From assembly GCA_903825415.1 (NCBI GenBank), contig CAIKAN010000028.1, positions 3,474 to 67,473 on the forward strand: a DNA stretch of 64,000 nucleotides. Direction: 5' to 3'. The notes below the pieces were generated by a model. It made no database searches. It worked only from the letters and a program-made list of their open reading frames with translations, and was not told the origin of the DNA. The position numbers and the translations under genes were made by a program. This document shows positions 7,701 to 51,410 of this stretch, piece by piece (the first letter of the stretch is position 1; each line of letters begins with the position of its first letter). Source of the DNA: an uncultured bacterium (GTDB taxonomy: Bacteria; Patescibacteriota; Minisyncoccia; Phycocordibacterales; PALSA-1337).

Positions 7701-10700
7701 AGCGGTCAAGCGACGCTCGATCAGAATGGTCAGACGACGATCAAGCCGACGGGCTCAGTCTTCTCAGGCACCGGCCAAGACCAGAGCAAGATCGTAGTGA
7801 TCGATTCGACGGTCAAGAATCAAGAAGGGAGGAGCATATCGGCGCAGAAATCATTCATCATGCATGCCGCACCGATATATATCGGAAGCAAGATCGTAGA
7901 GCCATTCATCGGCAAAGGAGAAGCGATCTCGCTCAAATTGAAGACTGTCGATACCGCTGCTAACCCAAGATCGCTCGGAGTCAAGGTCAATCTGTATCAC
8001 GTCTATTGGACGAGCACCAAGAACGGCAATGGCAATATGATCTGGGATCAAAAGCGCGATCTAGTCAAAGCCATTGACGCCAGCACGGATTCCAATGGCG
8101 ATGGCAGCCTTGCTCTGCCGCAAGTCGATGAAGGAGAATATGCCGTCGATGTCACCTCAGGGCAGGATGGCGCGGCAGTCGGCAGCCGATCTTGGTTCTA
8201 TGTCTATGGAGACCAGAATGTCTCTGTGAGGGGCAGCGACGATACATCGCTTGAAATGGTCTTGAATGATACCACGGTCAAGAGTGGCACTACGGCAGAA
8301 GTCCTGATCAAAATGCCGGAGGGGAAAGGCAAGGCGCTAGTGACGATCGAGCGAGGCAGCATCTATAGTTACAAGATCATAGATCTTACTGGGTCACTGA
8401 CTCGTTTTCAATTTCCCGTTGAGCAGAGATATTATCCCAATGTCTATGTGAGCGTCGTAGCCTATGCTCCGAACAGGGCAGTGCGCTTCGGCAGTCAGAA
8501 TATAAAGGTAGATAGCGATCAAAAGAAGCTCGATCTGACCATCTCTCCCGATAAGCAGCAATATAGCCCTGGCGATAAGGTGACATTGAATATCCGCTCT
8601 ACTGATTCCAGCGGCAAGCCTGTCATCGCTGATGTCTCATTAGCCGTTGTCGAGATGAATGTGCTCGCGCTTCGAGGCAATCCTCACAAGGACCCGCTCC
8701 AATATTTTTACGGGAATATCCCGCTCACAATTGGAACAGCGTCGAATTACAAGAGCTTGCTCAAGGATATACCTTGGCAAAGCAGTGACGGCAAGGGAGG
8801 GGGAGGTGGAGACCTAGACAAGCAGAAGAGCCGCGGCAATTTCAAGGAAGTGGCCTATTGGAATGCTGATATCATGACGGATCAAGGCGGCAATGCTGTC
8901 CTCTCATTCGTTTTGCCGGACAATCTGACGACTTGGCAAGCAGAGGCAGTCGGCATCACACAGGATACGAGCCTCGGAGTGGCTTATAAGGAATTCATCT
9001 CGAGCAAAGAGCTGATGATCGTTCCTCTCGAGCCGCGATTCGTATTGCCTGGCGATAAGTTCTCTCTGGGGGCGACTATCTTCAATAATAGCCGAAATGA
9101 TTTCAAGGGGAGCGTCGCTTTGACGGTCCCATCTACACTAGATTCTTCAAAAGCCTCTCTGAAGAGCGACATGAGCTTGAAGGCGGGGGAATCAAAAGAT
9201 GTATATTTTGATCTGTCTGTGCCTGAAACAGCTCAGCCTGGAGATATCCCTTATACTATCGAGGCCTCTGGATCAGGCTTATCGGATTCGGTCGTGGACA
9301 CGATCAAAGTCAATCCGAGCAGCGCATACGAGGTGACTGCGACGGCCGGTCAAACCGATTCTTCCGCCAGCGAATCAATATATGTTCCTACTACCATAAT
9401 CCCGAATATGGGCGAATTGTCTGTCAGAAGCTCGGCCACTCTAGCTATGTATCTGCCTCAGGCTTTGAATTATATGATCGATTATCCTTATGATTGCACT
9501 GAACAGATGGGGAGCCAGATCCAAGCGATAGCGCTCATGGATAAGGCACATCTGCTTTTCACCAACGGGACTTCTACTTATACAGGGAAGATCTTGTTCG
9601 ATGGAAAGGAACAAAAAGCTCAGGATATCATCCAGAGCCGATTGCAATCGATATATAACAGGCAGAGCTCCGATGGAGGATTCAGGCTCTGGTCCGAAAG
9701 CTATAGTTCGAGCTTATTCGCGACCGAGGAAGCTTTGAAGGCTTTTGACACCCTGAAGAGCGCTGGCTATAGCATCGATGAGACTGCTTGGGATAAGGGC
9801 GCAGATTATCTGTACAGTCAATATTCACATTCGAATATAGTATATTCAGACGAAGAGATCATTGCTTTTGCGGAAGCCCTATACACGAGGCCGCGATATG
9901 TCTCTGATCTATCCTTCGCGAAAGATTTCAATTCTGCCGTAGATCGTATCCTTAAAAATGAAACTGTCTCTACCGGCACCTTGCTCTCCATTAGCGGATT
10001 GTCGCATCGATACGGATTCTTGGCTTCGCAATCAAAAAAGATCGATCTCACGCTTGAGAACAGGGTGATAGTCGATTCTCGAGGCAGTTTCCTTGATGCT
10101 TCTAGTGGCGGCTATCGCTATGAGACTGCTATATCTAATACAGCTCGCTATATAGAATTGCTCTCCATGGAAAAGCAAAATCAGGCCGAATTGCCAAATC
10201 TATTGCGCTGGCTGACCCTGTCGCGCTCGAAAGACGGCTCATGGGACTCGACAGAGAATAATCTGGCTGTGATCAAGGGTTTCACCCAGTATCTCGATTG
10301 GCAGCCTGAGACATCTGCTGTCTTCATGGAAACCAATTCCTTGAATGGGGAGACGATCGATACCTTCTCTTATAAGCCTGAAAATATCCTGACCACGATC
10401 TCGAAGACTCTGCCTATGAGCCGATTGCAGTTCGGTGGCATGAATACGGTGGCCTTCGCCAGATCGGCCGATGGAGCCGCTTCAAAAGGCAAGATCTATT
10501 ACGACCTTAGCTTGAAGTATTATCTTCCGGCCGATACTATGGGACCGCGTGATGAGGGCTTTGCTATCTCGCATGGATTCTATGCTCTATCCGATACCAA
10601 AGGGCAGACCCCCATCAACCAAGCGCATGTTGGAGATGTTCTGCGGGAGCATATCGAATTCACCGTGCCGGTGACCAGGAATGATGTATCGATCGAAGAC

Positions 10701-40470: not shown

Positions 40471-43400
40471 ATGGATGAGTTAAAACCAAACAAAAGCCCG
40501 CATGCCGAGCGCGAAGAGCGCATTTTGGCGTCATGGAAAGAGAAGGGAATATTCGAGAAGAGCTTGGAGAAGAACAAGGGCAAGGGTAAAGATTTCCTCT
40601 TCTATGAGGGTCCTCCCACTGCCAATGGCCGTCCAGGCATCCACCATCTCGAAGCTCGCGCTTTCAAAGACGCTATACCTCGATACAAGACCATGCGGGG
40701 ATTTTATGTGCGCCGCAAGGGAGGGTGGGATACTCACGGCTTGCCTGTAGAATTACAGGTTGAAAAGGAGCTTGGTCTCAAGTCCAAGAAAGAGATCGAA
40801 CAATATGGCATAGGCGCATTCAATGATAAATGCAAAGAGAGCGTCTGGAAATATGTCCATGAATGGGAGGGCTTCACCGATCGCATGGGGTATTGGGTCG
40901 ATCTCAAGAATCCGTATATCACATACAAGCCCGAATATATCGAATCTGTCTGGAATGTGATCAAGACTGTCGGTGACAAAGGCTTGCTCTACAAAGATTA
41001 CAAAGTCGTGCCATGGTGCCCTCGTTGCGGTACGGCATTGTCTTCGCATGAATTGGCGCAGGGGTATCAGGACGTGAAGGATCTGGCGGTCACGGTGAAA
41101 TTCAGAATCAATAATCAAAAGGCAAAAGGCAAAAATGAAAGTCAAAACTCAAAAGTAGAAGACACTTACTTGCTAGCTTGGACGACGACACCTTGGACGT
41201 TACCGGGGAATGTGGGGTTGGCAGTTAATTCAAAAATTGAATATGTGAAGATAAAAGTCGAAGATGATGGTTTCTATATTCTTGCGAAATCTCGTCTGGC
41301 GGTCTTGAAAGATACGAAATATTCGACCGTTGAAACAATGAAAGGTTCAGAGCTTGTCGGTATGGAATATGAGCCTCTTTATCCGTTTTTGAAGGACAAT
41401 ATCTCCGGTCCCGAAAAAGAGAAATTGGGCAACGCTTACAAAGTCTATGCCGCTGATTTCGTCACCACCGAAGATGGCACGGGCATAGTCCATACAGCCG
41501 TGATGTATGGCCAAGACGACTTTGAATTGGGAACGAAAGTAGGTCTGCCCAAATATCATTTGGTGAACGAAGATGGGACATTCAAAAAAGAGGCCGGATT
41601 CTTGGCGGGTGCTTTTGTTAAAGATCCAGGTACAGATGTCGCTATCATCAAGGATCTAGCTGGCAGGGGATTATTATTCGCAAAAGAAAAGTATGAGCAT
41701 AGCTATCCTTTCTGTTGGAGATGCCATACCCCTCTCATTTATTTTGCGCGCGATTCTTGGTATATCAAGATGTCGGCCCTGAGGAATGACCTGGTCAAAG
41801 AGAATGAAGGCATACACTGGGAACCTGGGCATATCAAAGAAGGGCGCTTTGGCGAATGGCTATCCGAGGTCAAGGACTGGGCTATTTCTCGTGAGCGCTA
41901 TTGGGGCACACCTTTGCCTGTCTGGTCATGTGAAAAGTGTAAGAAGATAAAGGTTGTAGGTTCGAAGGCGGATGTCTCTCAAAAGCCGAAAAATAGCTAT
42001 TCCATCATGAGGCATGGACAGGCTGAGAACAATACTCTCGGTATCATAAGCGATAAGCCTGAATATCCGCATCATTTGACGGATTTGGGCAGGCAACAAG
42101 TGGCTGAGACTGCTGAATCTCTGAAGGGTTCGAAATTTGATTTGATATTCGTATCTCCATTTGTGCGCACGATGGAGACGACGCAGATCCTGAAGGGTAA
42201 GCTCGGCTGGAAAGATGAGCAGATCCATGTCGATAGCCGCATCCACGAAGTTGGGGTCGGTGATTGGAGCGGCAGGAAGGTCGCGGATACCATGAAGGAG
42301 TTCAAGTATGAAGATAGATTCGAGCGTTGTCCGAAAGGAGGGGAGACTTATGCTGACGTAAAAAAGCGCATGGGAGATTTCCTGTATGACCTTGAATCAA
42401 AATATGAAGGCAAGAAGATTTTGATCATCTCTCATGAGACGCCGTTGTTCCTATTAGTCGCTGTAGCCAAAGGTTTGGACCGCAAACAATCTCTCGATCT
42501 GCGAGGAGATAAAGAATATATCGCCAATGCCCAAGAACAGGATCTTGATTTTGAGATCATTCCACATAATTCTGAGTATGAGCTCGACCTGCATCGTCCA
42601 TTCATAGATGAGGTAAAGTTGGCCTGCGAGTGCGGAGGCACCATGAATCGTGCCAAGGAAGTTTTGGATGTCTGGTTCGATTCCGGGTCTATGCCTTTCT
42701 CGCAGGACCATTATCCATTTGAGAACAAAGAATTGATCAATGGCAAAGGCTATCCAGCCGATTTCATTTCCGAAGCCATAGATCAGACTCGTGGTTGGTT
42801 CTACACTCTCCATGCTATCGGCATTCTGATGGGCAAAGGCAAGGCTTTTAAGAATGTCATTTGCTTGGGCCATATCTTGGATGCCAAAGGCAAGAAGATG
42901 TCCAAGTCGATCGGGAATGTGGTCAACCCTTGGGAGATGATGGATAAATACGGAGCCGATGCTTTGCGCTTTTGGATGTATTCGGTAAATCAGCCGGGAG
43001 ATTCCAAGAATTTTGAGGAGAAGACTGTAGATGAGATCGTGAAGAAGGTGTTTAATCTGGCGGCGAATGTATTGTCTTTTTATAAATTGTATGAGGATGA
43101 TGAAATCAAAAATCAAAAATCAAAAATCAAAAATACAGATAAAAAAGTCAAAAATAATCAATCGCAAAATGTTTTGGATCAATGGATTGTTGCTAGGTTG
43201 AATCAATTAATAAGCACGATTACAAAAGGACTGGATGGTTACATATTCATGGAACCAGCTAGGGCGATACGTGATTTTATGGCGGATCTATCGCAGTGGT
43301 ATCTCCGGAGATCGAGAGATAGATTTAAAGAGGAAGGGGAGGACAAAGAACAGGCTCTGGCGACAACCAGATTCATACTGATCACTTTAGCAAAGGTGAT

Positions 43401-44001
43401 GGCGCCATTCACGCCATTCTTCGCCGATTATCTGTACGAAGAGGCGGGCGGTGGATTGGAGAGCGTTCATCTTGAGAATTGGCCGGAGGCGAGCGAAATT
43501 GATATAAGTATCTTAAAGGATATGGAAACAGTAAGATATTTTTCTTCGAAAGGACTTGAGGCGCGATCACTTGCAAGGATAAATGTTCGGCAACCGCTTA
43601 AGACATTCCATATCAACGAATATAAATCATACATGCTCAAGCACGATTCAAATGGCTCCAATAAGGTTCCTAGTAGTGAGAAGATATCTCTGTCAGAAGA
43701 TATGGTCAATCTGATTCGTGATGAAGTAAATGTTAAGAATGTCTTATTTGATTCGACTATAGAAGAAGAGGTAAAACTAGACCTGATCATCACTCCTGAA
43801 TTAAAAGAAGAAGGCGATCTGCGAGAGCTTCTCCGCAAAATCCAAGACTTACGCAAGGAGAAAGGCTTAACTGTCGGTGACTTGGCGGTTTTGATGGTCA
43901 CGGATGAATTCAAGGCTATCGTTACCAAGAATGGAGACGCTATCAAGAAGGCTACGAATCTTAAGAGTATTGAATTTGGCGCAAAGTTGGAGATAAAATA
44001 G
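40471..44001 (+). CDS. ileS: isoleucine--tRNA ligase with an embedded histidine-phosphatase (PGAM-like) domain and low-complexity in-frame inserts
   Basis: HHLEAR (HIGH-like), WCPRCGT, the editing-domain region, DWAISRERYWGTPLPVW, DVWFDSGS, DQTRGWFY and KMSKS. Residues about 508-668 (nt about 41992-42474) read SIMRHGQAENN…SPFVRTMETT…EVGVGDWSG…GGETYADV…ISHETPLF, a histidine-phosphatase fold. Confidence 0.9.
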   Translation: MDELKPNKSPHAEREERILASWKEKGIFEKSLEKNKGKGKDFLFYEGPPTANGRPGIHHLEARAFKDAIPRYKTMRGFYVRRKGGWDTHGLPVELQVEKELGLKSKKEIEQYGIGAFNDKCKESVWKYVHEWEGFTDRMGYWVDLKNPYITYKPEYIESVWNVIKTVGDKGLLYKDYKVVPWCPRCGTALSSHELAQGYQDVKDLAVTVKFRINNQKAKGKNESQNSKVEDTYLLAWTTTPWTLPGNVGLAVNSKIEYVKIKVEDDGFYILAKSRLAVLKDTKYSTVETMKGSELVGMEYEPLYPFLKDNISGPEKEKLGNAYKVYAADFVTTEDGTGIVHTAVMYGQDDFELGTKVGLPKYHLVNEDGTFKKEAGFLAGAFVKDPGTDVAIIKDLAGRGLLFAKEKYEHSYPFCWRCHTPLIYFARDSWYIKMSALRNDLVKENEGIHWEPGHIKEGRFGEWLSEVKDWAISRERYWGTPLPVWSCEKCKKIKVVGSKADVSQKPKNSYSIMRHGQAENNTLGIISDKPEYPHHLTDLGRQQVAETAESLKGSKFDLIFVSPFVRTMETTQILKGKLGWKDEQIHVDSRIHEVGVGDWSGRKVADTMKEFKYEDRFERCPKGGETYADVKKRMGDFLYDLESKYEGKKILIISHETPLFLLVAVAKGLDRKQSLDLRGDKEYIANAQEQDLDFEIIPHNSEYELDLHRPFIDEVKLACECGGTMNRAKEVLDVWFDSGSMPFSQDHYPFENKELINGKGYPADFISEAIDQTRGWFYTLHAIGILMGKGKAFKNVICLGHILDAKGKKMSKSIGNVVNPWEMMDKYGADALRFWMYSVNQPGDSKNFEEKTVDEIVKKVFNLAANVLSFYKLYEDDEIKNQKSKIKNTDKKVKNNQSQNVLDQWIVARLNQLISTITKGLDGYIFMEPARAIRDFMADLSQWYLRRSRDRFKEEGEDKEQALATTRFILITLAKVMAPFTPFFADYLYEEAGGGLESVHLENWPEASEIDISILKDMETVRYFSSKGLEARSLARINVRQPLKTFHINEYKSYMLKHDSNGSNKVPSSEKISLSEDMVNLIRDEVNVKNVLFDSTIEEEVKLDLIITPELKEEGDLRELLRKIQDLRKEKGLTVGDLAVLMVTDEFKAIVTKNGDAIKKATNLKSIEFGAKLEIK

Positions 44002-44901: not shown

Positions 44902-45306
44902 TTAAGCCGGAAAGACTGACATAAAATACTTTTGCTTGTGCTTATTCTCTTTGATCTGAACATAGAATAACTCTCCAGTATGAATTTGACCGATAAATCT
45001 ATGGAGTATCTCTGATTTTCTCATGGGATTTGTCTGAGAATACGGTTTTAACATTGTATTCTCAATGAGATCTAGAGCACAAAGATAATATTTGAGACGG
45101 CGTACGCGATCATGCATATTCTTTTCTCTAAGATGTGCCCAGAAATAATCTAGTAATATCTTCTCTTTTTTGAAATATTTCGATCTGATATATGGCCGCC
45201 TTTTGGTTCTGGATTCGATATCCTTGTATATAGATAATGCCGTCGGATAGATTTCCGAATATTTTGTTCCAGCAAGCGGCCGCATCATCGTCTTGAATAT
45301 ATTCAA
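44902..45306 (-). CDS. hypothetical protein
   Basis: ORF only. Basic and Tyr-rich. No motif recognised. Confidence 0.3.
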   Translation of the reverse strand: MNIFKTMMRPLAGTKYSEIYPTALSIYKDIESRTKRRPYIRSKYFKKEKILLDYFWAHLREKNMHDRVRRLKYYLCALDLIENTMLKPYSQTNPMRKSEILHRFIGQIHTGELFYVQIKENKHKQKYFMSVFPA

Positions 45307-45777
45307 GGTTTCCAGATTCTATCAAACCATTATGAAAAAACGCTGAATTTTTGTTCAAAAAAGGATAAAGTTTTTGTGAGCTATTGGTTTTCAATAATAT
45401 CTGGGGAGGGAATATCAGATAGGAGCAATGAAAGATCCCCATAGGGCTACGGATATGGTATGGAGTGCGATCAAGAAGCGGTGTTTAGAGGAGAGAGGCC
45501 TTGCGGTCTCTCACACTGCTTCCTTATCTGATCCCAAGTTATATCCATAGCCCCATGGGGACTAGGTTTCAGCTTTCGCTGATCGAGGTGATGGTGACTC
45601 TATGAGCCTACAGATCCCAGATCCTATAAGCTCATTAAAGTGGAGTAATTTTTGACAAGTTTTACTCCGTGATCAGTACGGATACCGATCAAACTTGCCA
45701 AGGAGGCGATCCTTGGGGTCGTGCCGCTGCGCTCTGCGGCCGAGGTTATGGAAGGTTTATTTACGACCTATAAAGAA

Positions 45778-47364
45778 CTACAATTTGAGACCGTCTAAGA
45801 CACCCCAGACTTCTTTTCCCAGACCAAAACCCTCTGTATTCTGCCCGACCAAAGGTGTGGATGCCTCCGAAGTCTCTTCTATCGACTGTGGCGGTTCAGG
45901 ATCTGATGGTGTCGTTACGGTTTTGGTCAACTGTAGAAGCAACTTTTTCTCATACACCTTTGCTAGCGCTTCCACATGAGCCACTGTTGGACTACTCATC
46001 CCTGACTCCCAAAGCGCTCGATTGGCCAGCTCCTTTGGATCTGTCCACTGAACGAGGTCCACCCTTTTATTCTCCTGTTGTTTTCCATTCAGGGTGACGC
46101 TTTTGATCTTTCCCATCGTTCCTTTGTCTCCAAAAGGAATCTGACACTTTGAAGGATGGCCTCGGAACCACTCACCGTAGCTCCATTCGCCTCTCCTGCT
46201 ACCTGTCTTTCCCACGATAACCAAGACGTCGTTTTGTCCCGGCATTTCAAGAATGGGCAAGAGGTCGTTAGTGCCGCAACTGACGCGGACGAATCCTTCT
46301 GGTGCAGTCGGGATTTCGTTCAGGCGGCTTTGCAGCCACTTGTATTCATCAGGCGACAGACGCTCGCCTTTGACAAAGTAAACGATCTCCTTGCATTTTC
46401 CATCGTCGTCATAACGATCTTCGGCGGTGCTCGTCAACACACCCTGTGTTTCGATGAACAGTTGCCAGAGATGATCGAGGCGGTCTTGGCGGATCTTTTC
46501 CGCACCGAACACCAACCGTTCCAATTCCGAGATATCCTCTTTATTGAACCGATAGAAGCGTTCGCGTTTTCCCGGCCAATTCTTCTCGTAACGGATGGTA
46601 TGGGCCGATTTTAACCCTGGAGACATCGGGAAATAACTGATGTCTCCGTTTATTTCTCCACCCAATGTCTCAAATATCAGGCCATAGTGGCCATTGGGAC
46701 ATGAATGGTCTCTCAGTGCTGTCCCATCTCTCCTGGCCACTTCCTCCAACCGCGCCATGAACTGCTGGCGCAGGGGAAAGACTTCTGCTTCGGTTTGGAG
46801 AAATTTCTCAACCTCTTCGAGAGGTGCGACCCATAGCCGGCTTTCTAATTTGCCTCGTATGCGCTCTTTCCTAAGAAGAAATGCTGCGGCGTTGCCAAAA
46901 GCGAGCAGGGTATTGGTCTCCACATCTGAGTTCGGAGTGTCACTGAGGACTTCCGAAATCACTGCACCCCATGATGGGTTGCCGGATTCAGACGCGCACT
47001 CAACGATCCCGAGTCCGGGAATACCGTACTGGCCAAGAAGGCGAGTAACCTTGCCCAAGTATGATTGCTTGGCGCTCTCGCGCTCCTCCTGCACAGCTTT
47101 GACCGTATCATTCCGACGCTCAGCAAGGATGCCTCGCCCTTCGTCGAGCACCTTTCTGAGAGTTTCTGGTTCCGCGTCCGGGATGATCATTCCGCCTTTT
47201 GACAAGACGATCCCAAACTTACGGAACTCATCGGGTGCGATTTCGTAGTTACCTACGAATGTACCACCCTTCTTTGCGGCGGCGATTGAACCGCCCCACA
47301 GATATTTTGCGAACGATTCGTTCGCAACAATAACATCCGTGGTAATTTTTTCAAATTTCGGCAT
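45778..47364 (-). CDS. hypothetical 528-aa protein at the distal end of a higher-GC island
   Basis: Long ORF with GC richer than the flanks. No motif recognised by eye. Confidence 0.4.
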   Translation of the reverse strand: MPKFEKITTDVIVANESFAKYLWGGSIAAAKKGGTFVGNYEIAPDEFRKFGIVLSKGGMIIPDAEPETLRKVLDEGRGILAERRNDTVKAVQEERESAKQSYLGKVTRLLGQYGIPGLGIVECASESGNPSWGAVISEVLSDTPNSDVETNTLLAFGNAAAFLLRKERIRGKLESRLWVAPLEEVEKFLQTEAEVFPLRQQFMARLEEVARRDGTALRDHSCPNGHYGLIFETLGGEINGDISYFPMSPGLKSAHTIRYEKNWPGKRERFYRFNKEDISELERLVFGAEKIRQDRLDHLWQLFIETQGVLTSTAEDRYDDDGKCKEIVYFVKGERLSPDEYKWLQSRLNEIPTAPEGFVRVSCGTNDLLPILEMPGQNDVLVIVGKTGSRRGEWSYGEWFRGHPSKCQIPFGDKGTMGKIKSVTLNGKQQENKRVDLVQWTDPKELANRALWESGMSSPTVAHVEALAKVYEKKLLLQLTKTVTTPSDPEPPQSIEETSEASTPLVGQNTEGFGLGKEVWGVLDGLKL

Positions 47365-47612
47365 ATAGCCTTTCCACCTCCTCCCAGCATCTTTGATGGA
47401 AGAGATTGTTCTGTTGTCGGGATGCTCCGACTGTTGTTGACTAACTGATCAACCCGCGATTCCTATCGTGGGCTGAAAAAGTTTGGTGAATGTCCGCATA
47501 CATTCACCATTGGGAACCGCATTATGCATCAAGCGGGATGCAAGAGGTTTTTTCAATGAGTCCTTCTAAACTCATAAATGTTTTCAGCGTGTACATTCAA
47601 CGTCTCGTTTCT

Positions 47613-48146
47613 TTAGCCTGCGATCTGACCGAGCAGGTGGCGGTACACCATAGCTGCTACCGCCGAATCGTAGAGGGGATTATGCGTCCCACCCTCGAAC
47701 TCGCCGACGGACAGATTGTGTTTCTTCACATATCCATCCACCGAGGTCGCATCCTCGCCTGCCTGTTGCAGGTTTCCGCTTACATCGTAGAGCGGGTAGG
47801 GTGCATCCCAGTCGCCAATGAGCTTCTGGGTGTGCATGTCGCGAAGAACTTTCGTCTCTACGATGTAGCCCATGTGAACGACCACATCGGCTCCCTCCTT
47901 GTTGGCTTTGTAGAAGGCCGCGAAGGCAGCGAGGAGTGCCTCGTACGTGTCGTGGGTCACGGGGATGTTTGCGATCTTGGGGAGGACGTTCTCCTTGACC
48001 CAAGGGTCGGTGACTTCCGTGTCCGGGAGCCGTCCGACAAACCGAGCGATTTCGGAGCCTTTCTCGTCATAGACGAGCGCACCGATGGCGAACGCCCGTC
48101 CCCACAGCCCGTTTGTTTCGGCGTCAAAACTAAACAATGTCTTCAT
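47613..48146 (-). CDS. DEDDh-type 3'-5' exonuclease (DnaQ/oligoribonuclease-like fold)
   Basis: Exo I motif FSFDAETNGL (D-x-E) and Exo III motif H-x4-D (THNPLYDSA). 177 aa. Confidence 0.55.
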   Translation of the reverse strand: MKTLFSFDAETNGLWGRAFAIGALVYDEKGSEIARFVGRLPDTEVTDPWVKENVLPKIANIPVTHDTYEALLAAFAAFYKANKEGADVVVHMGYIVETKVLRDMHTQKLIGDWDAPYPLYDVSGNLQQAGEDATSVDGYVKKHNLSVGEFEGGTHNPLYDSAVAAMVYRHLLGQIAG

Positions 48147-48515
48147 ACTGTAATTCCATTTCTTTTCCTGATTTTTCCGCCGGAATCGCGGTCAAGCCAT
48201 CATGCTCCTGCGTTAGGTTTCACGCAGAAACAGGTTGCTGCCAGACAAGCAACACCGGACAAGAGCCGAAGCTCCACATGCGAGCTGATGGTTGAAACAA
48301 TCTTCTTGAACACCTCCTTTGAAGAGAGATGCTCAAGATACTGTTCCAACGATAAACACCTATGTTATGAACAAAGGCTCTACCGACCGCCGAGATCTCT
48401 CTCAGCAAGCGGATAAAGTCCAGCACCGATCTTTCGATGGTGCTGGGAATTAATGAACGCCGCAGCGTTCATTGTGATGGTGATCAAGCAACTATGAGCC
48501 TGCGGGCTCACTGGA

Positions 48516-49238
48516 CTATTCGCTGGAGTAGAGCAGTGCCTCGAGCTGCCCTATGGTTTTGGCTTTTTCCGATGCGTACTGAGGATTGCCGAGCCAACCG
48601 AGACTCGGGTCCTTCCAGATGGAAAGAGCGACCGACCCTCCAGCGTTTGGAGAATCATTCTCCAGTGATTCCGCGAAATCCGCCGCGGGGCGAATCTCTT
48701 CGGAGACGAGACGGTTGAGTAGGTGACCAAGGTCACCCAGGGCGGCCATGAGGCCATCCCAAATCTGGGTGTGTCTCTTGGCCGATTTGAGGGAGACGAT
48801 GCCCTCAATGTAGTCGTTGAAGTCTCCGGCGCCGTCGTCTTTCTCGCCTTTCTTGGCGCAGAGGGAGAGTCGGAATCCGTATTCGTCTTCCAAGGAGGTG
48901 ACGATGTCTTTGATGGGCACGCCGGCTCGGATTTTCGACGACAGGCCGTCGAAGGTCATGTGGCCGATGGTCACCTGACCTTTCAATACGGCCACCTCGC
49001 CGGGAAAGTTGCCCCTCCCGGCGATTGGATTCCAGAACTTATATCCGCTGTCGGTCTTGTAGACCTCTTCATGGATATCGAGCCTGATGGTGGAATTCAA
49101 GTTGCACTTTTTGGCCCACGCACGGACGATCTTCTCGTCCGCCGAACCCCACTTTCCATCTCGTTCAATGGCGACATCGATGTCGCCTGCGGCCGTCGTA
49201 GAAACAGAACTGCCGAATATTACAATGATTCTTGCCAT
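48516..49238 (-). CDS. nucleotidyltransferase-fold (Pol-beta superfamily) protein with an unknown C-terminal domain
   Basis: N-terminal IIVIFGSSVSTTAAGDIDVAI matches the hG[GS]-x9-13-DhD minimal NTase signature. The rest is unassigned. Confidence 0.5.
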   Translation of the reverse strand: MARIIVIFGSSVSTTAAGDIDVAIERDGKWGSADEKIVRAWAKKCNLNSTIRLDIHEEVYKTDSGYKFWNPIAGRGNFPGEVAVLKGQVTIGHMTFDGLSSKIRAGVPIKDIVTSLEDEYGFRLSLCAKKGEKDDGAGDFNDYIEGIVSLKSAKRHTQIWDGLMAALGDLGHLLNRLVSEEIRPAADFAESLENDSPNAGGSVALSIWKDPSLGWLGNPQYASEKAKTIGQLEALLYSSE

Positions 49239-49542
49239 AAGTACTCTTTGATTTTTGTTGTTGATGTTTAACTGCGGATTTCAAACCTGAATGATCAGGC
49301 CTAAAATCCGTAGTTAAAATTTGTAACAACAAATAGCTATGGCAGAACGATTAGACTTACGAACACGGTCGAATCACTCTACCGGATGCCGAGATCTTCC
49401 TCAACGGCCGGATAAAGTGGAGAAGTGACCATACTTTAATGAACACTTCTCCGACATTCATCAAAGGCAAGAGCTCGCAATACCGCTCTTGCTGTTAACC
49501 AAAGAACCATTTGCGCATTGCGATACGCACCCCGGAAAGGGA

Positions 49543-49779
49543 CTATTTGAGCAGGGCGGTCAGCTCGCTAGCCGCCTCACCACCACCGTTGTGATCGAGC
49601 CATTCGACCACCCGGTCGAACACTTCGCGAGGCACCGTAACAGGCGCCACCGCCTTCGCCCATCCGGCTGCCAATTGGTTCCCAAACTGCCGGAGAGTTT
49701 GCGGGTCGACCACCTCGGCGACCCCGAAGCTGCCGTCAGCCGCTCCAGTTTCCCGGAGAATTTTTGTTGTGATCATCAA
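49543..49779 (-). CDS. hypothetical small protein
   Basis: 78-aa ORF. GC-rich. No motif. Confidence 0.25.
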   Translation of the reverse strand: MMITTKILRETGAADGSFGVAEVVDPQTLRQFGNQLAAGWAKAVAPVTVPREVFDRVVEWLDHNGGGEAASELTALLK

Positions 49780-49887
49780 CTCTCATTCACCACACGGCGG
49801 TGAGACTCTTTGATCATTCAAACTACAGCTCGCACTTGCGAGCAAATCAAATAGTAGAAGCTCCAGATGGCCTTCTACTATAGGGGA

Positions 49888-49918
49888 TCTTGCGACCCCT
49901 CTTGTCTTGCCGACCTAG
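49888..49918. repeat. 31-nt direct repeat TGCGACCCCTCTTGTCTTGCCGACCTAGAAG, copy 1, part of a roughly 75-nt repeated unit
   Basis: Identical 31-mer at 50519-50549. The extended units share …GTCAGCA…AAGAGGRRTAACATT. Confidence 0.65.
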
Positions 49919-50100
49919 AAGCCCAGTATGCTTCAAGTCAGCAGTAAAAGAGGGGTAACATTTTGACTCTACTGTTTTCGTCCTTTAGGACTCATCAGTC
50001 GGGATACGCATCCCGAGAACAGTGGGGGAGATGGATTGAACATCTCCCCGTCACGATCTAAAAAGAACTATTTTTTGCCAGTGTGGCGGTGACGGGAGTT

Positions 50101-50367
50101 CTATAGATAATGTTCTTTTCTGTAGAACTCTTCGGTAGCGTAGGATATTCTCCCCATTCCTACCTCCACTTGGTAACGGGCGTGTGCTCGTCCCAGATCC
50201 CACCTGAGGGTGGAATCCAACCTTGCCTTCTTCCTCAGGATTGCGTGACGCAGTCCTGAGATCCATGTGGTCGCTGCCCACATGATGGCCCAAACAGCCG
50301 CCATGATAGCAACCATCGCCACCAGCCCCATCAAACCACCGACGAAAGCTTTAAATAGCATGAACAT
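50101..50367 (-). CDS. small membrane protein (single TM); start chosen at the internal Met with a good RBS
   Basis: MFMLFKAFVGGLMGLVAMVAIMAAVWAIMWAATTW… is preceded on the minus strand by AGGAGaaaagttATG. Flanked by the 31-nt direct repeats. Confidence 0.4.
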   Translation of the reverse strand: MFMLFKAFVGGLMGLVAMVAIMAAVWAIMWAATTWISGLRHAILRKKARLDSTLRWDLGRAHARYQVEVGMGRISYATEEFYRKEHYL

Positions 50368-50518
50368 AACTTTTCTCCTCCCAGTATTATTCGGCATACT
50401 GGAGCCGTTTTGAAGATGTTTGAATGCCGGCACATCTTCGTAAGCCGGAAGACTTCCGCTATACTTATTCGTATAGTCTTTTGCTAGGATCACTACCCAG
50501 GCTACTCGCCTAGGAATT

Positions 50519-50549
50519 ATGCGACCCCTCTTGTCTTGCCGACCTAGAA
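50519..50549. repeat. 31-nt direct repeat, copy 2
   Basis: Identical to 49888-49918. Confidence 0.65.
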
Positions 50550-51284
50550 GTATTTTACGCTATCGGTCAGCACGACGAAGAGGAATAACATTGCAGAACT
50601 ATTTGTTCCGCGTTTTCCCATTCAAGGAAATGCAAAGCATCTCGCTTGAACTTTATCTTCGCTATTCTACTGTCAAACATCATCCTTGTCTTTTACCTTC
50701 ACTTTCCTTCTTCGCATAAAGCCTTGAAGGACTTCAGGTCACAAGGACATTTCCGTCAAGAAAGCATACCTTCTTGTCTAGTCTGTCCTCACGACTGCGG
50801 ATTTTCAAAAGGGAAGTGATGTCGTCTTGCCATCATAGTTCGATGAAATCACTATAATAAACAAAAGCGGTCCATATATCCCTTCAAATCAAATAGAGAA
50901 GAGATATATAGACCGCCTTTCTTGTGATGAGCATATCAATAATGCCCCAAAGCGATGTTATAGGACTCTCCTCTAAGAAAATCCATGTATTCGTTTGTTA
51001 TGTACATACCGTACTCTGACTCATATAGTCTAGCATACCCTGTACAAACTGTCAAGTATATTTCATTATGTTTATGTAGTCATGAGAGTATGGCTCAGAA
51101 TATGGGTATTTTGAGAGGCCTATTTCATATTCTCTTGAGCATTTTTTTGTGGTTGTTGAAATAGGTTGCATCTCCATGAATTTTCTCCGCCAATCGGCGG
51201 ATTCAAATTCCCCTTCTTCGCTCCTCGTGGTTCGACTAGCTCACCACAAGTTACCTCGGAGCTTCGCAGGGCAAGCAAATTCCA

Positions 51285-51410
51285 ATTTTCAATCAAATTT
51301 CAATGAAATAATCTCCAATCGATCGGTCATGGTTCTTTCTAATGAAAATTTGAGACTTGTAAATTGATTGAAAATTGGAATTTGAAAATTGGTCATTCGA
51401 CCATATTCAA
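51285..51410. repeat. AT-rich 'ccaatt/ttcaat' hexamer array with inverted-repeat symmetry
   Basis: TTCCAATTTTCAATCAA … TTGATTGAAAATTGGAA. Confidence 0.5.

What the first reader, a model, noticed from the sequence alone, without database searches (positions are those of the whole stretch)
45700..50600. Higher-GC island encoding a minimal-NTase-fold protein, a DEDDh exonuclease, a 528-aa unknown and a small TM protein, punctuated by repeated intergenic motifs: a candidate defence or mobile module
All five ORFs are on the minus strand and differ in composition from the surrounding AT-rich housekeeping DNA. The 240-aa protein has the GS-x10-DxD Pol-beta nucleotidyltransferase signature (FGSSVSTTAAGDIDV). 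The 177-aa protein has DEDDh exonuclease motifs (FDAETNGL; H-x4-D). The 130-aa ORF reduces to an 88-aa single-TM protein with a strong RBS. A related motif of about 60 nt (CTCTACCG…GCCGAGATCT…GGATAAAGT… followed by an AATGAAC…GTTCATT hairpin) follows both the 78-aa ORF and the NTase gene (49377-49470 and 48378-48475). The TM gene is flanked by 31-nt perfect direct repeats (49888-49918 and 50519-50549), part of repeated units of about 75 nt that form a CCCCTCTT…AAGAGGGG hairpin. NTase plus nuclease plus small membrane protein plus an unknown large protein resembles signalling or abortive-infection defence systems or a phage-derived module, but it matches no system I can name.
Basis: partly seen in the sequence, partly recalled or inferred. 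Interest (0 to 1): 0.65.

Follow-up and report, generated by a model that had tools for sequence, protein, structure and literature searches.

The report
Ribozyme-punctuated accessory operon in a CPR bacterium

Summary
The ORFs, the GC excess and both repeat families are real.

- **177-aa protein:** it is a DEDDh exonuclease by predicted structure (pLDDT 90; RNase T and Pol III epsilon are the top matches).
- **240-aa "NTase":** an orphan with no profile, PDB or homologue support.
- **PADLOC:** no model matches any of the five proteins.
- **Conserved part:** only the gene pair 177 aa + 528 aa recurs, in 8 other Patescibacteria loci, each in a different housekeeping context. The 78-aa, 240-aa and TM genes occur only in this genome.
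- **Missed feature:** a complete type III hammerhead ribozyme lies on the coding strand at 49970-50024. Related hammerheads lie upstream of, and in L018 also downstream of, the 528-like gene in 8 further loci; in an alignment of nine copies from eight loci, 9 of 13 pairs covary.
- **Partner swapping:** where the 177-type gene is absent, an NrN-like DHH phosphodiesterase (3 loci) or a Pfam RNase_T gene (1 locus) takes its place.
- **528-aa family:** 86 hits among 1.84 billion representative proteins, with no recognisable fold.

Best reading: a horizontally acquired operon cut by a hammerhead, with a phosphodiesterase + unknown-protein core. It is probably a conflict module, but its function is untested.

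The parts
50504..50753 (-). Conserved leader of the element. It contains promoter-like hexamers (AAGACA-17-TAGAAT, 50692-50664) that are kept in L012.
   Evidence: 69% identical to L012 3882-4115, which lies directly before that locus's exonuclease gene. Promoter scan.
50513..50590 (-). Repeat unit B: a ~75-nt hairpin holding the 31-nt perfect repeat (50520-50550).
   Evidence: MFE -32.5, z -4.2. L012 keeps the helix with U-G to U-A changes, which fits only the minus strand.
50101..50367 (-). 88-aa ORF with one hydrophobic N-terminal segment and a strong Shine-Dalgarno sequence. Found only in this genome.
   Evidence: No relative in any locus. No profile hit.
50025..50049 (-). 9-bp hairpin ending 8 nt before the ribozyme cleavage site. 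It would form the 3' end of the upstream cleavage product.
   Evidence: A hairpin at the same position but with a different sequence is predicted in L004, L006, L016 and L017 (weakly in L018; not in L019's minimum-energy fold).
49970..50024 (-). Type III hammerhead ribozyme. Predicted cleavage is after C50017 (triplet UUC).
   Evidence: Rfam RF00008, 42.1 bits, E 1.5e-7, complete core CUGAUGAG...CGAAA. The MFE fold gives the three-way junction. 72.9 bits with the family model R1, which it helped train. Covariation.
49884..49960 (-). Repeat unit A: a diverged paralogue of unit B with the same 31-nt core (49891-49921).
   Evidence: MFE -37.8, z -5.9.
49828..49843 (-). Terminator-like hairpin between unit A and the 78-aa ORF.
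   Evidence: consensus scan only.
49543..49779 (-). 78-aa ORF. Found only in this genome; function unknown.
49377..49470 (-). Copy 2 of the ~95-nt 3' element (a hairpin plus the conserved ACUUUAUCCG...GAUCUCGGC...CGGUAGAG domain).
   Evidence: z -3.6.
49254..49333 (-). Very stable 80-nt hairpin directly before the 240-aa ORF.
   Evidence: MFE -36.9, z -9.6.
48516..49238 (-). 240-aa orphan ORF carrying the G-S...D-I-D string. NTase identity is not validated.
48378..48475 (-). Copy 1 of the ~95-nt 3' element.
   Evidence: MFE -52, z -6.5.
47613..48146 (-). DEDDh 3'-5' exonuclease / phosphodiesterase (177 aa). First gene of the conserved core.
   Evidence: AF2 pLDDT 90.1. Foldseek: RNase T, Pol III epsilon, ExoI, 3'hExo and Orn, prob 1.0, TM 0.64-0.69. 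D8, E10, D103, H155 and D160 are invariant. At least 757 homologues, the 120 listed being 71-100% identical.
47376..47431 (-). Conserved 5'UTR element of the 528-aa gene. It has an invariant hairpin GUCGG-N6-CCGAC. The hairpin loop can pair with GAUGC downstream, and a second helix takes in the Shine-Dalgarno sequence.
   Evidence: Present in the window, L004, L012, L016, L018, L019 and L020. The loop-downstream pairing shows one compensatory A-U to G-C change.
45778..47364 (-). 528-aa protein of a small uncharacterised family. Second gene of the conserved core.
45435..45562 (-). Conserved 128-nt structured RNA hairpin (GCAA loop) downstream of the 528-aa gene.
   Evidence: The 350 nt after the stop codon align to L012 at 77% mean column identity, against about 62% nt identity for the BLAST match spanning the gene. 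46 predicted pairs, 5 with compensatory changes in two sequences.

Best explanation
**What it is.** The island (about 45431-50753, minus strand) is a horizontally acquired accessory operon of a Patescibacteria (CPR) genome.

**Conserved core.**
- A gene for a divergent DEDDh 3'-5' exonuclease/phosphodiesterase (177 aa).
- Next, a gene for a 470-540-aa protein of a tiny family with no recognisable fold (528 aa here).
- Conserved RNA parts: a leader with a promoter-like site and a ~75-nt hairpin; a pseudoknot-like 5'UTR that occludes the ribosome-binding site of the 528-aa gene; and a 128-nt 3' hairpin.

**Additions in this genome.** Three strain-specific orphan cassettes (88-aa TM protein, 78 aa, 240 aa) sit between the leader and the exonuclease gene. 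Each is bounded by paralogous hairpin modules. One boundary carries a type III hammerhead ribozyme on the coding strand.

**How it most likely works at the RNA level (inferred).**
1. The leader promoter drives one polycistronic RNA.
2. The hammerhead cuts itself after C50017.
3. The upstream mRNA is left ending in a hairpin with a 2',3'-cyclic phosphate.
4. The downstream RNA starts with a 5'-OH ribozyme scaffold, so the cistrons acquire separate stabilities. In most related loci the same ribozyme sits just before the 528-like gene.

**Protein function (inferred, about one chance in three).** The pair is a conflict module, either defence or anti-defence. The phosphodiesterase would remove a small nucleotide or oligonucleotide that controls, or is produced by, the 528-aa protein. 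This parallels the NrN or DEDD 'off-switch' enzymes found next to CorA in type III CRISPR loci.
For: **Hammerhead**
- Complete core and three helices.
- Related same-strand copies lie upstream of, and in L018 also downstream of, the 528-like gene in L004, L006, L016, L017, L018 (two or three copies), L019, L020 and L037.
- In the 9-sequence alignment, 98.3% of cells pair and 9 of 13 pairs have compensatory changes. 0 of 500 shuffles reach this, and slid controls pair at 50% or less.
- The window ribozyme is 92.7% identical to that of L016, while the adjacent genes are 64% identical at the nucleotide level.
- A hairpin just 5' of the cleavage site recurs with different sequences.

**Core gene pair**
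- The 177-like gene lies directly upstream of the 528-like gene in 8 other distinct loci. None of the other three ORFs has a relative anywhere.

**Mobility**
- Every locus has different housekeeping neighbours.
- tRNA genes abut the module in L004, L009 and L017, and one lies about 2.3 kb downstream of it in L022.
- Large serine recombinases abut it in L018 and L022.
- GC and GC3 are in excess.
- The window's neighbours are aminoacyl-tRNA synthetases, RecO, SHMT, EF-P and similar.

**Inserted cassettes**
- In L012 the leader plus hairpin unit directly precedes the exonuclease gene.

**Phosphodiesterase partner**
- DEDDh fold with invariant catalytic residues.
- It is replaced by an NrN-like DHH protein in three loci: L006 (PADLOC DHH_CorA 3.8e-37, C3a116 5e-54), L017 (1.5e-15) and L038 (tblastn 1.8e-14 to the L017 protein). 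In L037 a Pfam RNase_T gene stands there instead.
- NrN and DEDD enzymes are the two alternative partners of CorA in SAM-AMP signalling (PMC10600005).

**Precedent**
- Bacterial hammerheads flank single genes or short gene blocks in prophages. [quoted passage not shown]
Against: - The window hammerhead scores below Rfam's gathering threshold (42.1 against 48.5 bits). No cleavage or transcript data exist.
- The window has one hammerhead, 2.6 kb upstream of the 528-aa gene rather than next to it. Six loci with a 528-like gene and enough upstream sequence show none (L009, L012, L013, L014, L015, L026).
- Terminator-like hairpins between cistrons may mean several transcripts rather than one.
- There is no integrase, att site or empty-site comparison for this genome.
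- The conflict-module role is guilt by association. No PADLOC model hits either core protein. No cas10 or CRISPR-type CorA is linked.
- The 528 family is absent from IMG/VR viral contigs.
- The three orphan ORFs have no evidence of being expressed proteins beyond their length, GC3 and ribosome-binding sites.
Confidence: 0.6

Rival explanations
1. All five genes form one nucleotide-signalling or abortive-infection defence system: the 240-aa NTase makes a signal, the small TM protein or the 528-aa protein is the effector, and the DEDDh nuclease resets the system.
For: - The G-S-x8-D-I-D string sits at the N-terminus of the 240-aa ORF and is the only such match in the window.
- A phosphodiesterase of the DEDD or NrN kind is a known off-switch in SAM-AMP signalling.
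- A membrane protein also sits inside the module in L012 (TerC).
Against: - The 240-, 78- and 88-aa ORFs have no relative in any of the related loci or in a 5.8-billion-protein database. They are not co-inherited with the core.
- No NTase profile or PDB match appears even at E<=10.
- No PADLOC hit.
- About 0.4 chance occurrences of the pattern are expected in the window.
Confidence: 0.08
2. A phage-derived cassette array. The genes would be early or accessory phage genes left in the chromosome or carried by a small integrative element. The exonuclease would act as an anti-defence enzyme that destroys host immune nucleotide signals.
For: - 177-family genes occur in 5 IMG/VR viral contigs at 44-67% identity. 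In L035 the gene lies about 1.4 kb downstream of an anti-restriction gene (phrog_2059), among genes with PHROG hits.
- Hammerhead-flanked single genes, including ardA, are a prophage feature.
- Serine recombinases lie beside the module in L018 and L022.
Against: - The 528 family has no relative in viral contigs or in BFVD structures.
- No hammerhead is found in the viral loci.
- The window shows no structural or integration genes near the island.
- blastn against 50,697 phage records found nothing.
Confidence: 0.25
3. Ordinary housekeeping. The 177-aa protein would be the lineage's DnaQ-like proofreading or RNase T / Orn-like enzyme, and the island only looks foreign.
For: - The best structural matches include Pol III epsilon, with near-identical spacing of the catalytic residues.
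- In L029 the gene directly follows dnaE.
- The family is very well conserved.
Against: - At least 757 clusters (90% identity) among 1,427 word-sharing candidates, with the 120 best-scoring 71-100% identical, suggest patchy and recent spread rather than a universal CPR gene (inference).
- It occurs in viral contigs.
- Its neighbours differ in every locus.
- GC3 is 0.71 against 0.50-0.56 for host genes.
- It is replaceable by unrelated DHH enzymes.
Confidence: 0.05
4. Cassettes bounded by hammerheads are mobilised or expressed through excised, possibly circular, RNAs, as in eukaryotic retrozymes.
For: - In L018 same-strand hammerheads flank the 528-like gene on both sides (531-597 and 2412-2466; gene 776-2341).
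- In L016 two hammerhead-type elements flank a 63-aa ORF.
- The window has direct repeats with a perfect 31-nt core on both sides of the TM gene + ribozyme.
Against: - The window has only one hammerhead.
- No reverse transcriptase or ligase gene is linked.
- Perreault et al. looked for spliced or circular products in bacterial cases and detected neither.
- Unit B matches the ancestral L012 unit on both sides of the core, so the two units are not hybrid att-like sites.
Confidence: 0.04

Closest known systems
Hammerhead-flanked gene cassettes in bacterial prophages (Perreault et al. 2011, PMC3088659; e.g. the Agrobacterium tumefaciens triple hammerhead around ardA)
   Same: - Hammerheads lie on the coding strand between genes of one transcription unit.
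- They flank single genes or short gene blocks whose identity varies.
- They are linked to mobile DNA, integrases and recombinases.
- The proposed role is to process a long transcript into gene-length mRNAs.
   Different: - The host is a CPR bacterium; I found no paper linking hammerheads with CPR.
- This hammerhead lineage travels with one particular gene family (528-like).
- There is a conserved hairpin just 5' of the cleavage site.
- Four loci carry a U4-to-C core variant.
- The window has no prophage around it.
CorA + NrN/DEDD phosphodiesterase modules of type III CRISPR SAM-AMP signalling (Chi et al. 2023, PMC10600005)
   Same: - A small phosphodiesterase gene, alternately of the DEDD or the NrN-type DHH family, sits next to a partner gene.
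- The NrN-like partners in L006 and L017 hit the CRISPR CorA-associated DHH profiles.
   Different: - The partner is a soluble 470-540-aa protein of unknown fold, not CorA.
- No cas10 or CRISPR array is seen.
- The 177-aa family hits no PADLOC model.
- The CorA gene next to the L027 copy does not hit any PADLOC model, including the CRISPR-associated ones.
DEDDh exonucleases RNase T, Pol III epsilon and oligoribonuclease (Orn)
   Same: - Same fold.
- Same catalytic residues, with D-x-E ... D ... H-x4-D spacing almost identical to epsilon.
- Same size, about 175-205 aa.
   Different: - No Pfam RNase_T match.
- A profile of the family finds nothing in the PDB by sequence.
- Distribution is accessory and patchy, and includes viral contigs.
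Synthetic ribozyme insulators (RiboJ type), from my own knowledge
   Same: - A hammerhead placed just upstream of a coding sequence cuts off the upstream RNA.
- It stays on the 5' end of the mRNA, giving a fixed 5'UTR. L017 shows this layout, with the ribozyme ending at the Shine-Dalgarno sequence.
   Different: - This case is natural and is combined with a conserved pseudoknot-like 5'UTR.
- In the window the ribozyme precedes a different cistron.

Membership tests
Hammerhead ribozyme, type III (Rfam RF00008) | Conserved catalytic core CUGANGA ... GAAA and an NUH cleavage triplet | tested here: met
   CUGAUGAG ... CGAAA, triplet UUC, A15.1-U16.1 pair present.
Hammerhead ribozyme, type III (Rfam RF00008) | Three helices around the core, with stems I and II closed by loops, supported by covariation | tested here: met
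   The MFE fold gives the junction. Across 9 copies, 98.3% of cells pair, 9 of 13 pairs are compensatory and 0 of 500 shuffles reach this. Only 2 pairs of stem III were modelled.
Hammerhead ribozyme, type III (Rfam RF00008) | Score at or above Rfam's curated gathering threshold (48.5 bits) | tested here: not met
   42.1 bits in the window and 38.4-43.4 in related loci, with E 1.5e-7 to 1e-4.
Hammerhead ribozyme, type III (Rfam RF00008) | Self-cleavage activity | not testable with these tools
   Needs in vitro transcription or 5'-OH end mapping.
DEDDh (DnaQ-like) 3'-5' exonuclease superfamily | RNase H-like exonuclease fold | tested here: met
   AF2 pLDDT 90.1, pTM 0.88. Foldseek top 30 hits at E<=1e-3 include RNase T, epsilon, DexA, ExoI, 3'hExo and Orn.
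DEDDh (DnaQ-like) 3'-5' exonuclease superfamily | Catalytic D, E, D, H, D residues in motifs Exo I-III | tested here: met
   D8, E10, D103, H155 and D160 are invariant in 29 family members.
DEDDh (DnaQ-like) 3'-5' exonuclease superfamily | Match to the Pfam RNase_T (PF00929) profile or to solved relatives by sequence | tested here: not met
   No Pfam hit at E<=10. A profile search of the PDB returned 0 hits. hhalign against the RNase_T protein of L037 gave probability 0.2.
Minimal nucleotidyltransferase (Pol-beta superfamily / MNT / CD-NTase) | hG[GS]-x(7-13)-Dh[DE]h signature | tested here: inconclusive
   The string is present once (FGSSVSTTAAGDIDV). It is the only hit among 29,336 residues, and about 0.4 are expected by chance.
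Minimal nucleotidyltransferase (Pol-beta superfamily / MNT / CD-NTase) | Profile or homology support | tested here: not met
   No Pfam, PHROG, PADLOC or PDB match. No homologue among 5.8e9 proteins.
Minimal nucleotidyltransferase (Pol-beta superfamily / MNT / CD-NTase) | NTase fold | not tested
A single-sequence model of an orphan would also be unreliable.
Known anti-phage defence systems (PADLOC-DB v2) | At least one signature protein matching a system model | tested here: not met
   No significant hit for any island protein or for homologues of the core pair.
Type III CRISPR CorA / SAM-AMP signalling module | Phosphodiesterase partner of the NrN (DHH) or DEDD family | tested here: met
   DEDDh here. 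NrN-like DHH in L006 and L017 by PADLOC models and in L038 by tblastn similarity to them.
Type III CRISPR CorA / SAM-AMP signalling module | cas10 effector complex and a CRISPR-type CorA membrane effector in the locus | tested here: not met
   None among the neighbours examined. The CorA of L027 hits no PADLOC model. The whole window was not scanned.
Prophage hammerhead-flanked cassette arrays (Perreault 2011) | Same-strand hammerheads between or around genes | tested here: met
   Window: one copy between the TM gene and the 78-aa gene. L018 and L016: on both sides of a gene.
Prophage hammerhead-flanked cassette arrays (Perreault 2011) | Location in a prophage or next to an integrase | tested here: inconclusive
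   Not in the window. Serine recombinases are adjacent in L018 and L022. A tyrosine integrase lies 9 kb away in L006.
Integron gene cassettes | IntI integrase and attC sites with R''/R' boxes | tested here: not met
   No integrase among the examined neighbours. By eye, the hairpin units lack GTTRRRY/RYYYAAC boxes. This was not tested with an attC model.

The most novel reading that the evidence does not exclude
The phosphodiesterase + 528-aa pair is a previously unrecognised conflict or signalling module of CPR bacteria, tied to S-adenosylmethionine or a SAM-derived nucleotide.

- The partner enzyme alternates between the same two families (DEDD and NrN-type DHH) that degrade SAM-AMP next to CorA.
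- In locus L020 the whole DEDDh-hammerhead-528 operon lies behind a bona fide SAM-I riboswitch with its own promoter and terminator. It would therefore be switched on when SAM falls, for example under attack by a phage SAM lyase.
- The hammerhead and the pseudoknot 5'UTR would then set the ratio of enzyme to effector.
Probability: 0.12. Interest if true: 0.8.

Novelty: new variant of a known kind. Interest (0 to 1): 0.55.

Why it matters
- **An experimental handle on ribozyme function.** The biological roles of most bacterial hammerheads were described as unclear when they were catalogued in 2011 (PMC3088659). Here one ribozyme lineage travels with one gene family across many CPR genomes, and a protective hairpin and a 5'UTR element evolve with it. 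Natural ribozyme-based separation of cistrons could be tested directly on this case.
- **A clue to the protein function.** The gene pair is complete dark matter: no Pfam family, and no fold match for the 528-aa protein. Its partner enzyme is swapped among three unrelated phosphodiesterase families. That pattern points to a small-nucleotide-handling function in organisms whose defence and signalling systems are almost unknown.
- **If the SAM link holds,** it would tie riboswitch control, a ribozyme and a SAM-AMP-type phosphodiesterase together in one operon.

Tried and rejected
1. **Twister ribozyme.** The ~60-nt motif contains CCGGAUAAAGUGGAG, which resembles rice twister, but on the non-coding strand. 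Rfam found no twister, pistol, hatchet or other ribozyme there even at E<=10. I dropped the idea. With only two copies, the motif's structure cannot be tested by covariation.
2. **Degenerate hammerhead between the 177-aa and 528-aa genes.** This is where L004, L019 and L020 have one. The model R1 finds none there. The partial complementarity between 47411-47425 and the ribozyme (I6) arises because the 5'UTR hairpin shares AUCCCGAC with stem I.
3. **Integron or att-site reading of the 31-nt repeats.** Unit B matches the L012 unit on both sides of the core, so the two units are not hybrid sites.
5. **Distant relatives of the 528 family.** An exhaustive profile search returned 86 hits. Ten multidomain ones were scanned and have no Pfam domain.
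6. **Phage database.** blastn of the island found no match.
7. **Literature.** Weinberg et al. 2015 (ribozyme-associated gene classes) is not held. I therefore could not check whether these families are already on its list.
9. **Other loci with a riboswitch.** Only L020 has a SAM riboswitch.

Full report
**1. Observation**

The five minus-strand ORFs are at the stated coordinates:

| ORF | Coordinates |
|---|---|
| 528 aa | 45778-47364 |
| 177 aa | 47613-48146 |
| 240 aa | 48516-49238 |
| 78 aa | 49543-49779 |
| 130 aa from GTG, 88 aa from the ATG at 50367 | 50101-50493 |

- Island GC is 0.511 against 0.461 for the rest of the window, higher than any other 5.3-kb block (0 of 235).
- GC3 of the 177-, 240- and 78-aa genes is 0.68-0.71, against 0.50-0.56 for IleRS, RecO and DUF11.
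- Both repeat families are real and confined to the island.
- The perfect 31-mer lies at 49891-49921 and 50520-50550.
- The hairpins fold far better than shuffled sequence, with z from -3.6 to -9.6.
- The flanks on both sides are housekeeping genes on the plus strand: SHMT, ArgRS, IleRS and RecO on one side; DUF11, a class II aaRS, an M16 peptidase, MetRS, TatD, S6 and EF-P on the other.

**2. The proteins**

No island protein has a significant Pfam, PHROG or PADLOC match.

*177 aa.*
- The family has at least 757 members, and the 120 listed are 71-100% identical. All are unnamed, from Patescibacteria metagenome-assembled genomes such as Taylorbacteria.
- The AlphaFold model is confident (pLDDT 90.1, pTM 0.88).
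- Foldseek places it firmly among DEDDh exonucleases: RNase T, Pol III epsilon, DexA, ExoI, 3'hExo and Orn, probability 1.0, TM 0.64-0.69.
- D8, E10, D103, H155 and D160 are invariant.

*240 aa.*
- It is an orphan. The only hit among 5.8 billion proteins is itself. Nothing turns up in Pfam or the PDB at E<=10.
- The NTase-like string is the only match to a loose pattern in the window. About 0.4 matches are expected by chance.
- The NTase claim is not validated.

*528 aa.*
- The word-indexed search found 33 relatives. An exhaustive profile search of 1.84 billion representatives found 86.
- The N-terminal ~90 residues also occur on proteins with other C-terminal parts, none of which has a Pfam domain.

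**3. What is conserved**

Genome and metagenome scans place the family in CPR bacteria, for example Falkowbacteria.

- A 177-like gene lies immediately upstream of the 528-like gene in L004, L009, L012, L015, L016, L018, L019 and L020.
- The 240-aa, 78-aa, TM and 134-aa ORFs have no relative in any locus.
- Every locus has different housekeeping neighbours.
- tRNA genes abut the module in L004, L009 and L017, and one lies about 2.3 kb downstream of it in L022.
- Large serine recombinases abut it in L018 and L022.
- A divergent TrmB-family regulator recurs in L006, L012, L036 and L038.

L012, the closest relative with long flanks, shares four things with the window:
- the 528-like gene;
- the 5'UTR;
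- a 350-nt 3' non-coding stretch;
- the leader with hairpin unit B.

In L012 that leader directly precedes the exonuclease gene. The window therefore carries an extra segment between the leader and the exonuclease gene. In order it contains: TM gene, ribozyme, unit A, 78-aa gene, motif, 240-aa gene, motif.

**4. The hammerhead**

- Rfam finds a complete type III hammerhead on the coding strand at 49970-50024. It scores 42.1 bits (E 1.5e-7), below the 48.5-bit gathering score. The core is CUGAUGAG...CGAAA and the cleavage triplet is UUC.
- The minimum-energy fold reproduces the three-way junction.
- Same-strand relatives lie upstream of, and in L018 also downstream of, the 528-like gene in L004, L006, L016, L017, L018, L019, L020 and L037. 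Weaker extra copies occur in L006, L016 and L018.
- In the nine-sequence alignment, 98.3% of cells pair and 9 of 13 pairs show compensatory changes. No shuffle reaches this, and slid controls pair at 50% or less.
- The window and L016 ribozymes are 92.7% identical, while the neighbouring genes are 64% identical.
- A hairpin ending 4-9 nt before the cleavage site recurs with different sequences in the minimum-energy folds of six of the seven ribozyme contexts folded (weakly in L018). This fits a protected 3' end for the upstream product.
- L004, L017, L019 and L020 carry a U4-to-C core variant.
- No hammerhead was found in loci that hold only the 177-family gene, or in the viral loci.
- This matches the picture of Perreault et al. 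2011. [quoted passage not shown]
- I found no paper linking hammerheads with CPR bacteria.

**5. Other RNA parts**

- *5'UTR element (47376-47431).* A ~55-nt element upstream of the 528-like start codon is nearly invariant in seven loci. It has a 5-bp hairpin whose loop can pair with GAUGC downstream, with one A-U to G-C compensatory change. A second helix includes the Shine-Dalgarno sequence.
- *3' hairpin (45435-45562).* A 128-nt hairpin with a GCAA loop follows the 528-aa gene. It is conserved with L012, with 5 compensatory pairs of 46.
- *Leader.* The promoter-like hexamers (50692-50664) are kept in L012.
- *Hairpin unit.* Its outer helix varies C-G / U-G / U-A among unit A, unit B and L012. 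That pattern fits pairing on the minus strand only.

**6. The partner enzyme is swapped**

- In L006 a 261-aa gene occupies the place of the DEDDh gene, upstream of the ribozyme and the 528-like gene. It hits the CRISPR CorA-associated DHH models (DHH_CorA 3.8e-37; C3a116 5e-54).
- L017 and L038 carry related NrN-like genes near their 528-like genes.
- L037 has a Pfam RNase_T gene directly downstream. That protein is unrelated in sequence to the 177 family.
- About 13 of the roughly 15 loci with enough sequence on both sides therefore pair the 528 family with a 3'-5' exonuclease or phosphodiesterase of one of three lineages.
- NrN and DEDD enzymes are the two alternative partners of CorA in type III CRISPR. 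There NrN degrades SAM-AMP and is thought to act as an off-switch (PMC10600005).
- No cas10 or CRISPR-type CorA is linked here.
- Some neighbours are defence-like: a mad3/AriA/GajA-like ATPase in L004 and DUF3800 in L012.
- 177-family genes also occur in five IMG/VR viral contigs. In L035 the gene lies about 1.4 kb downstream of an anti-restriction gene. The 528 family does not occur in viral contigs.

**7. Mechanism**

*Shown:*
- the composition anomaly;
- the conserved gene pair;
- the DEDDh fold;
- the hammerhead with covariation;
- the conserved RNA elements;
- the cassette insertion relative to L012.

*Inferred:*
- One leader promoter drives a polycistronic RNA.
- The ribozyme cuts after C50017 and gives the flanking cistrons separate ends and stabilities.
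- The hairpin modules delimit cistrons.
- The phosphodiesterase and the 528-aa protein act together on a small nucleotide, in a defence or anti-defence role.

My confidence is 0.6 in the architectural account and about 0.35 in the conflict role.

**8. Comparison and novelty**

- The architecture belongs to the known kind "hammerhead-punctuated mobile gene cassettes".
- The gene content, the fixed ribozyme-gene association, the accompanying RNA elements and the CPR host are new.
- It cannot be filed under any defence system, under CorA/SAM-AMP modules or under integrons, because defining features were tested and not met.
- One lead deserves follow-up. In L020 a SAM-I riboswitch scores above its Rfam gathering score (46.6 against 44.4 bits). 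A TTGACA-17-TATACT promoter precedes it and a terminator follows it, and it heads the DEDDh-hammerhead-528 operon.

**Verdict.** The main feature, the ribozyme, was missed. Interest is moderate.

Noticed in passing
L020:1749-1935 (riboswitch 1802-1895): A SAM-I riboswitch scores above Rfam's gathering score (46.6 against 44.4 bits). A TTGACA-17-TATACT promoter precedes it and a hairpin plus U-tract follows it. It sits in the leader of the DEDDh-hammerhead-528 operon. No other locus has one.
   Followed up: partly
window 40471-44001: The isoleucyl-tRNA synthetase gene carries an inserted histidine-phosphatase (His_Phos_1, RHG motif) domain in the middle of the protein, according to the precomputed Pfam list for the identical gene in L001.
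   Followed up: no
window 44902-45306 (minus strand): A 134-aa ORF with very low GC (0.36; GC3 0.39) and no relative or profile hit. It is the only other minus-strand gene next to the island, and its composition is unlike both the island and the host.
   Followed up: partly
window 51276-51303 / 51357-51384: A 28-nt inverted repeat, 93% complementary, lies in the ~700-nt non-coding stretch between the island leader and the DUF11 gene. 51336-51397 resembles L026 365-426, upstream of another 528-like gene.
   Followed up: no
L004 9827-9880, L017 4938-4991, L019 1178-1231, L020 2646-2700: These hammerheads have CCGAUGAG instead of CUGAUGAG (U4 to C in the catalytic core), yet they keep covarying stems. 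They may be slow or regulated variants.
   Followed up: partly
L012:8649-8717 (minus strand) and 7969-8625: A DUF3800-IX RNA (RF02968, 40.5 bits against a 36.8 gathering score) lies next to a DUF3800 gene, immediately downstream of the 543-aa homologue. DUF3800-associated RNAs have no known function (PMC5737381).
   Followed up: partly
L006 7264-8040, L012 2623-3405, L036 3116-3955, L038 301-1212: A TrmB-family regulator gene is transcribed divergently, 300-900 nt upstream of the module, in four loci and in one locus that has only the 177-family gene. It is absent from the window.
   Followed up: partly
C-termini of P0001 (window 45778-45840), P0003, P0009, P0031: Four family members end in a shared tail, GFGLG..W..L.GLKL, after a disordered linker. 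It could be a docking or targeting peptide.
   Followed up: no
window 49254-49333: An almost perfect 80-nt hairpin (MFE -36.9, z -9.6) lies directly before the 240-aa ORF. L013 has a long hairpin that also starts UGUUUAAC before its 528-like gene, and L021 carries a related sequence at its contig end. These could be RNase III-type processing sites.
   Followed up: no
[not shown]
   Followed up: no
L036 4336-4758 and L038 1486-1935: A ~140-150-aa protein (shared motif YAW..G....G.HEP......S...PLY) recurs between the TrmB gene and the 528-like gene in two loci. It has no precomputed Pfam hit.
   Followed up: no
L016 399-590: A 63-aa ORF with a good ribosome-binding site lies between a strong hammerhead (187-240) and a weaker hammerhead-like element (627-681). 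This is another single-gene cassette bounded by ribozymes.
   Followed up: partly
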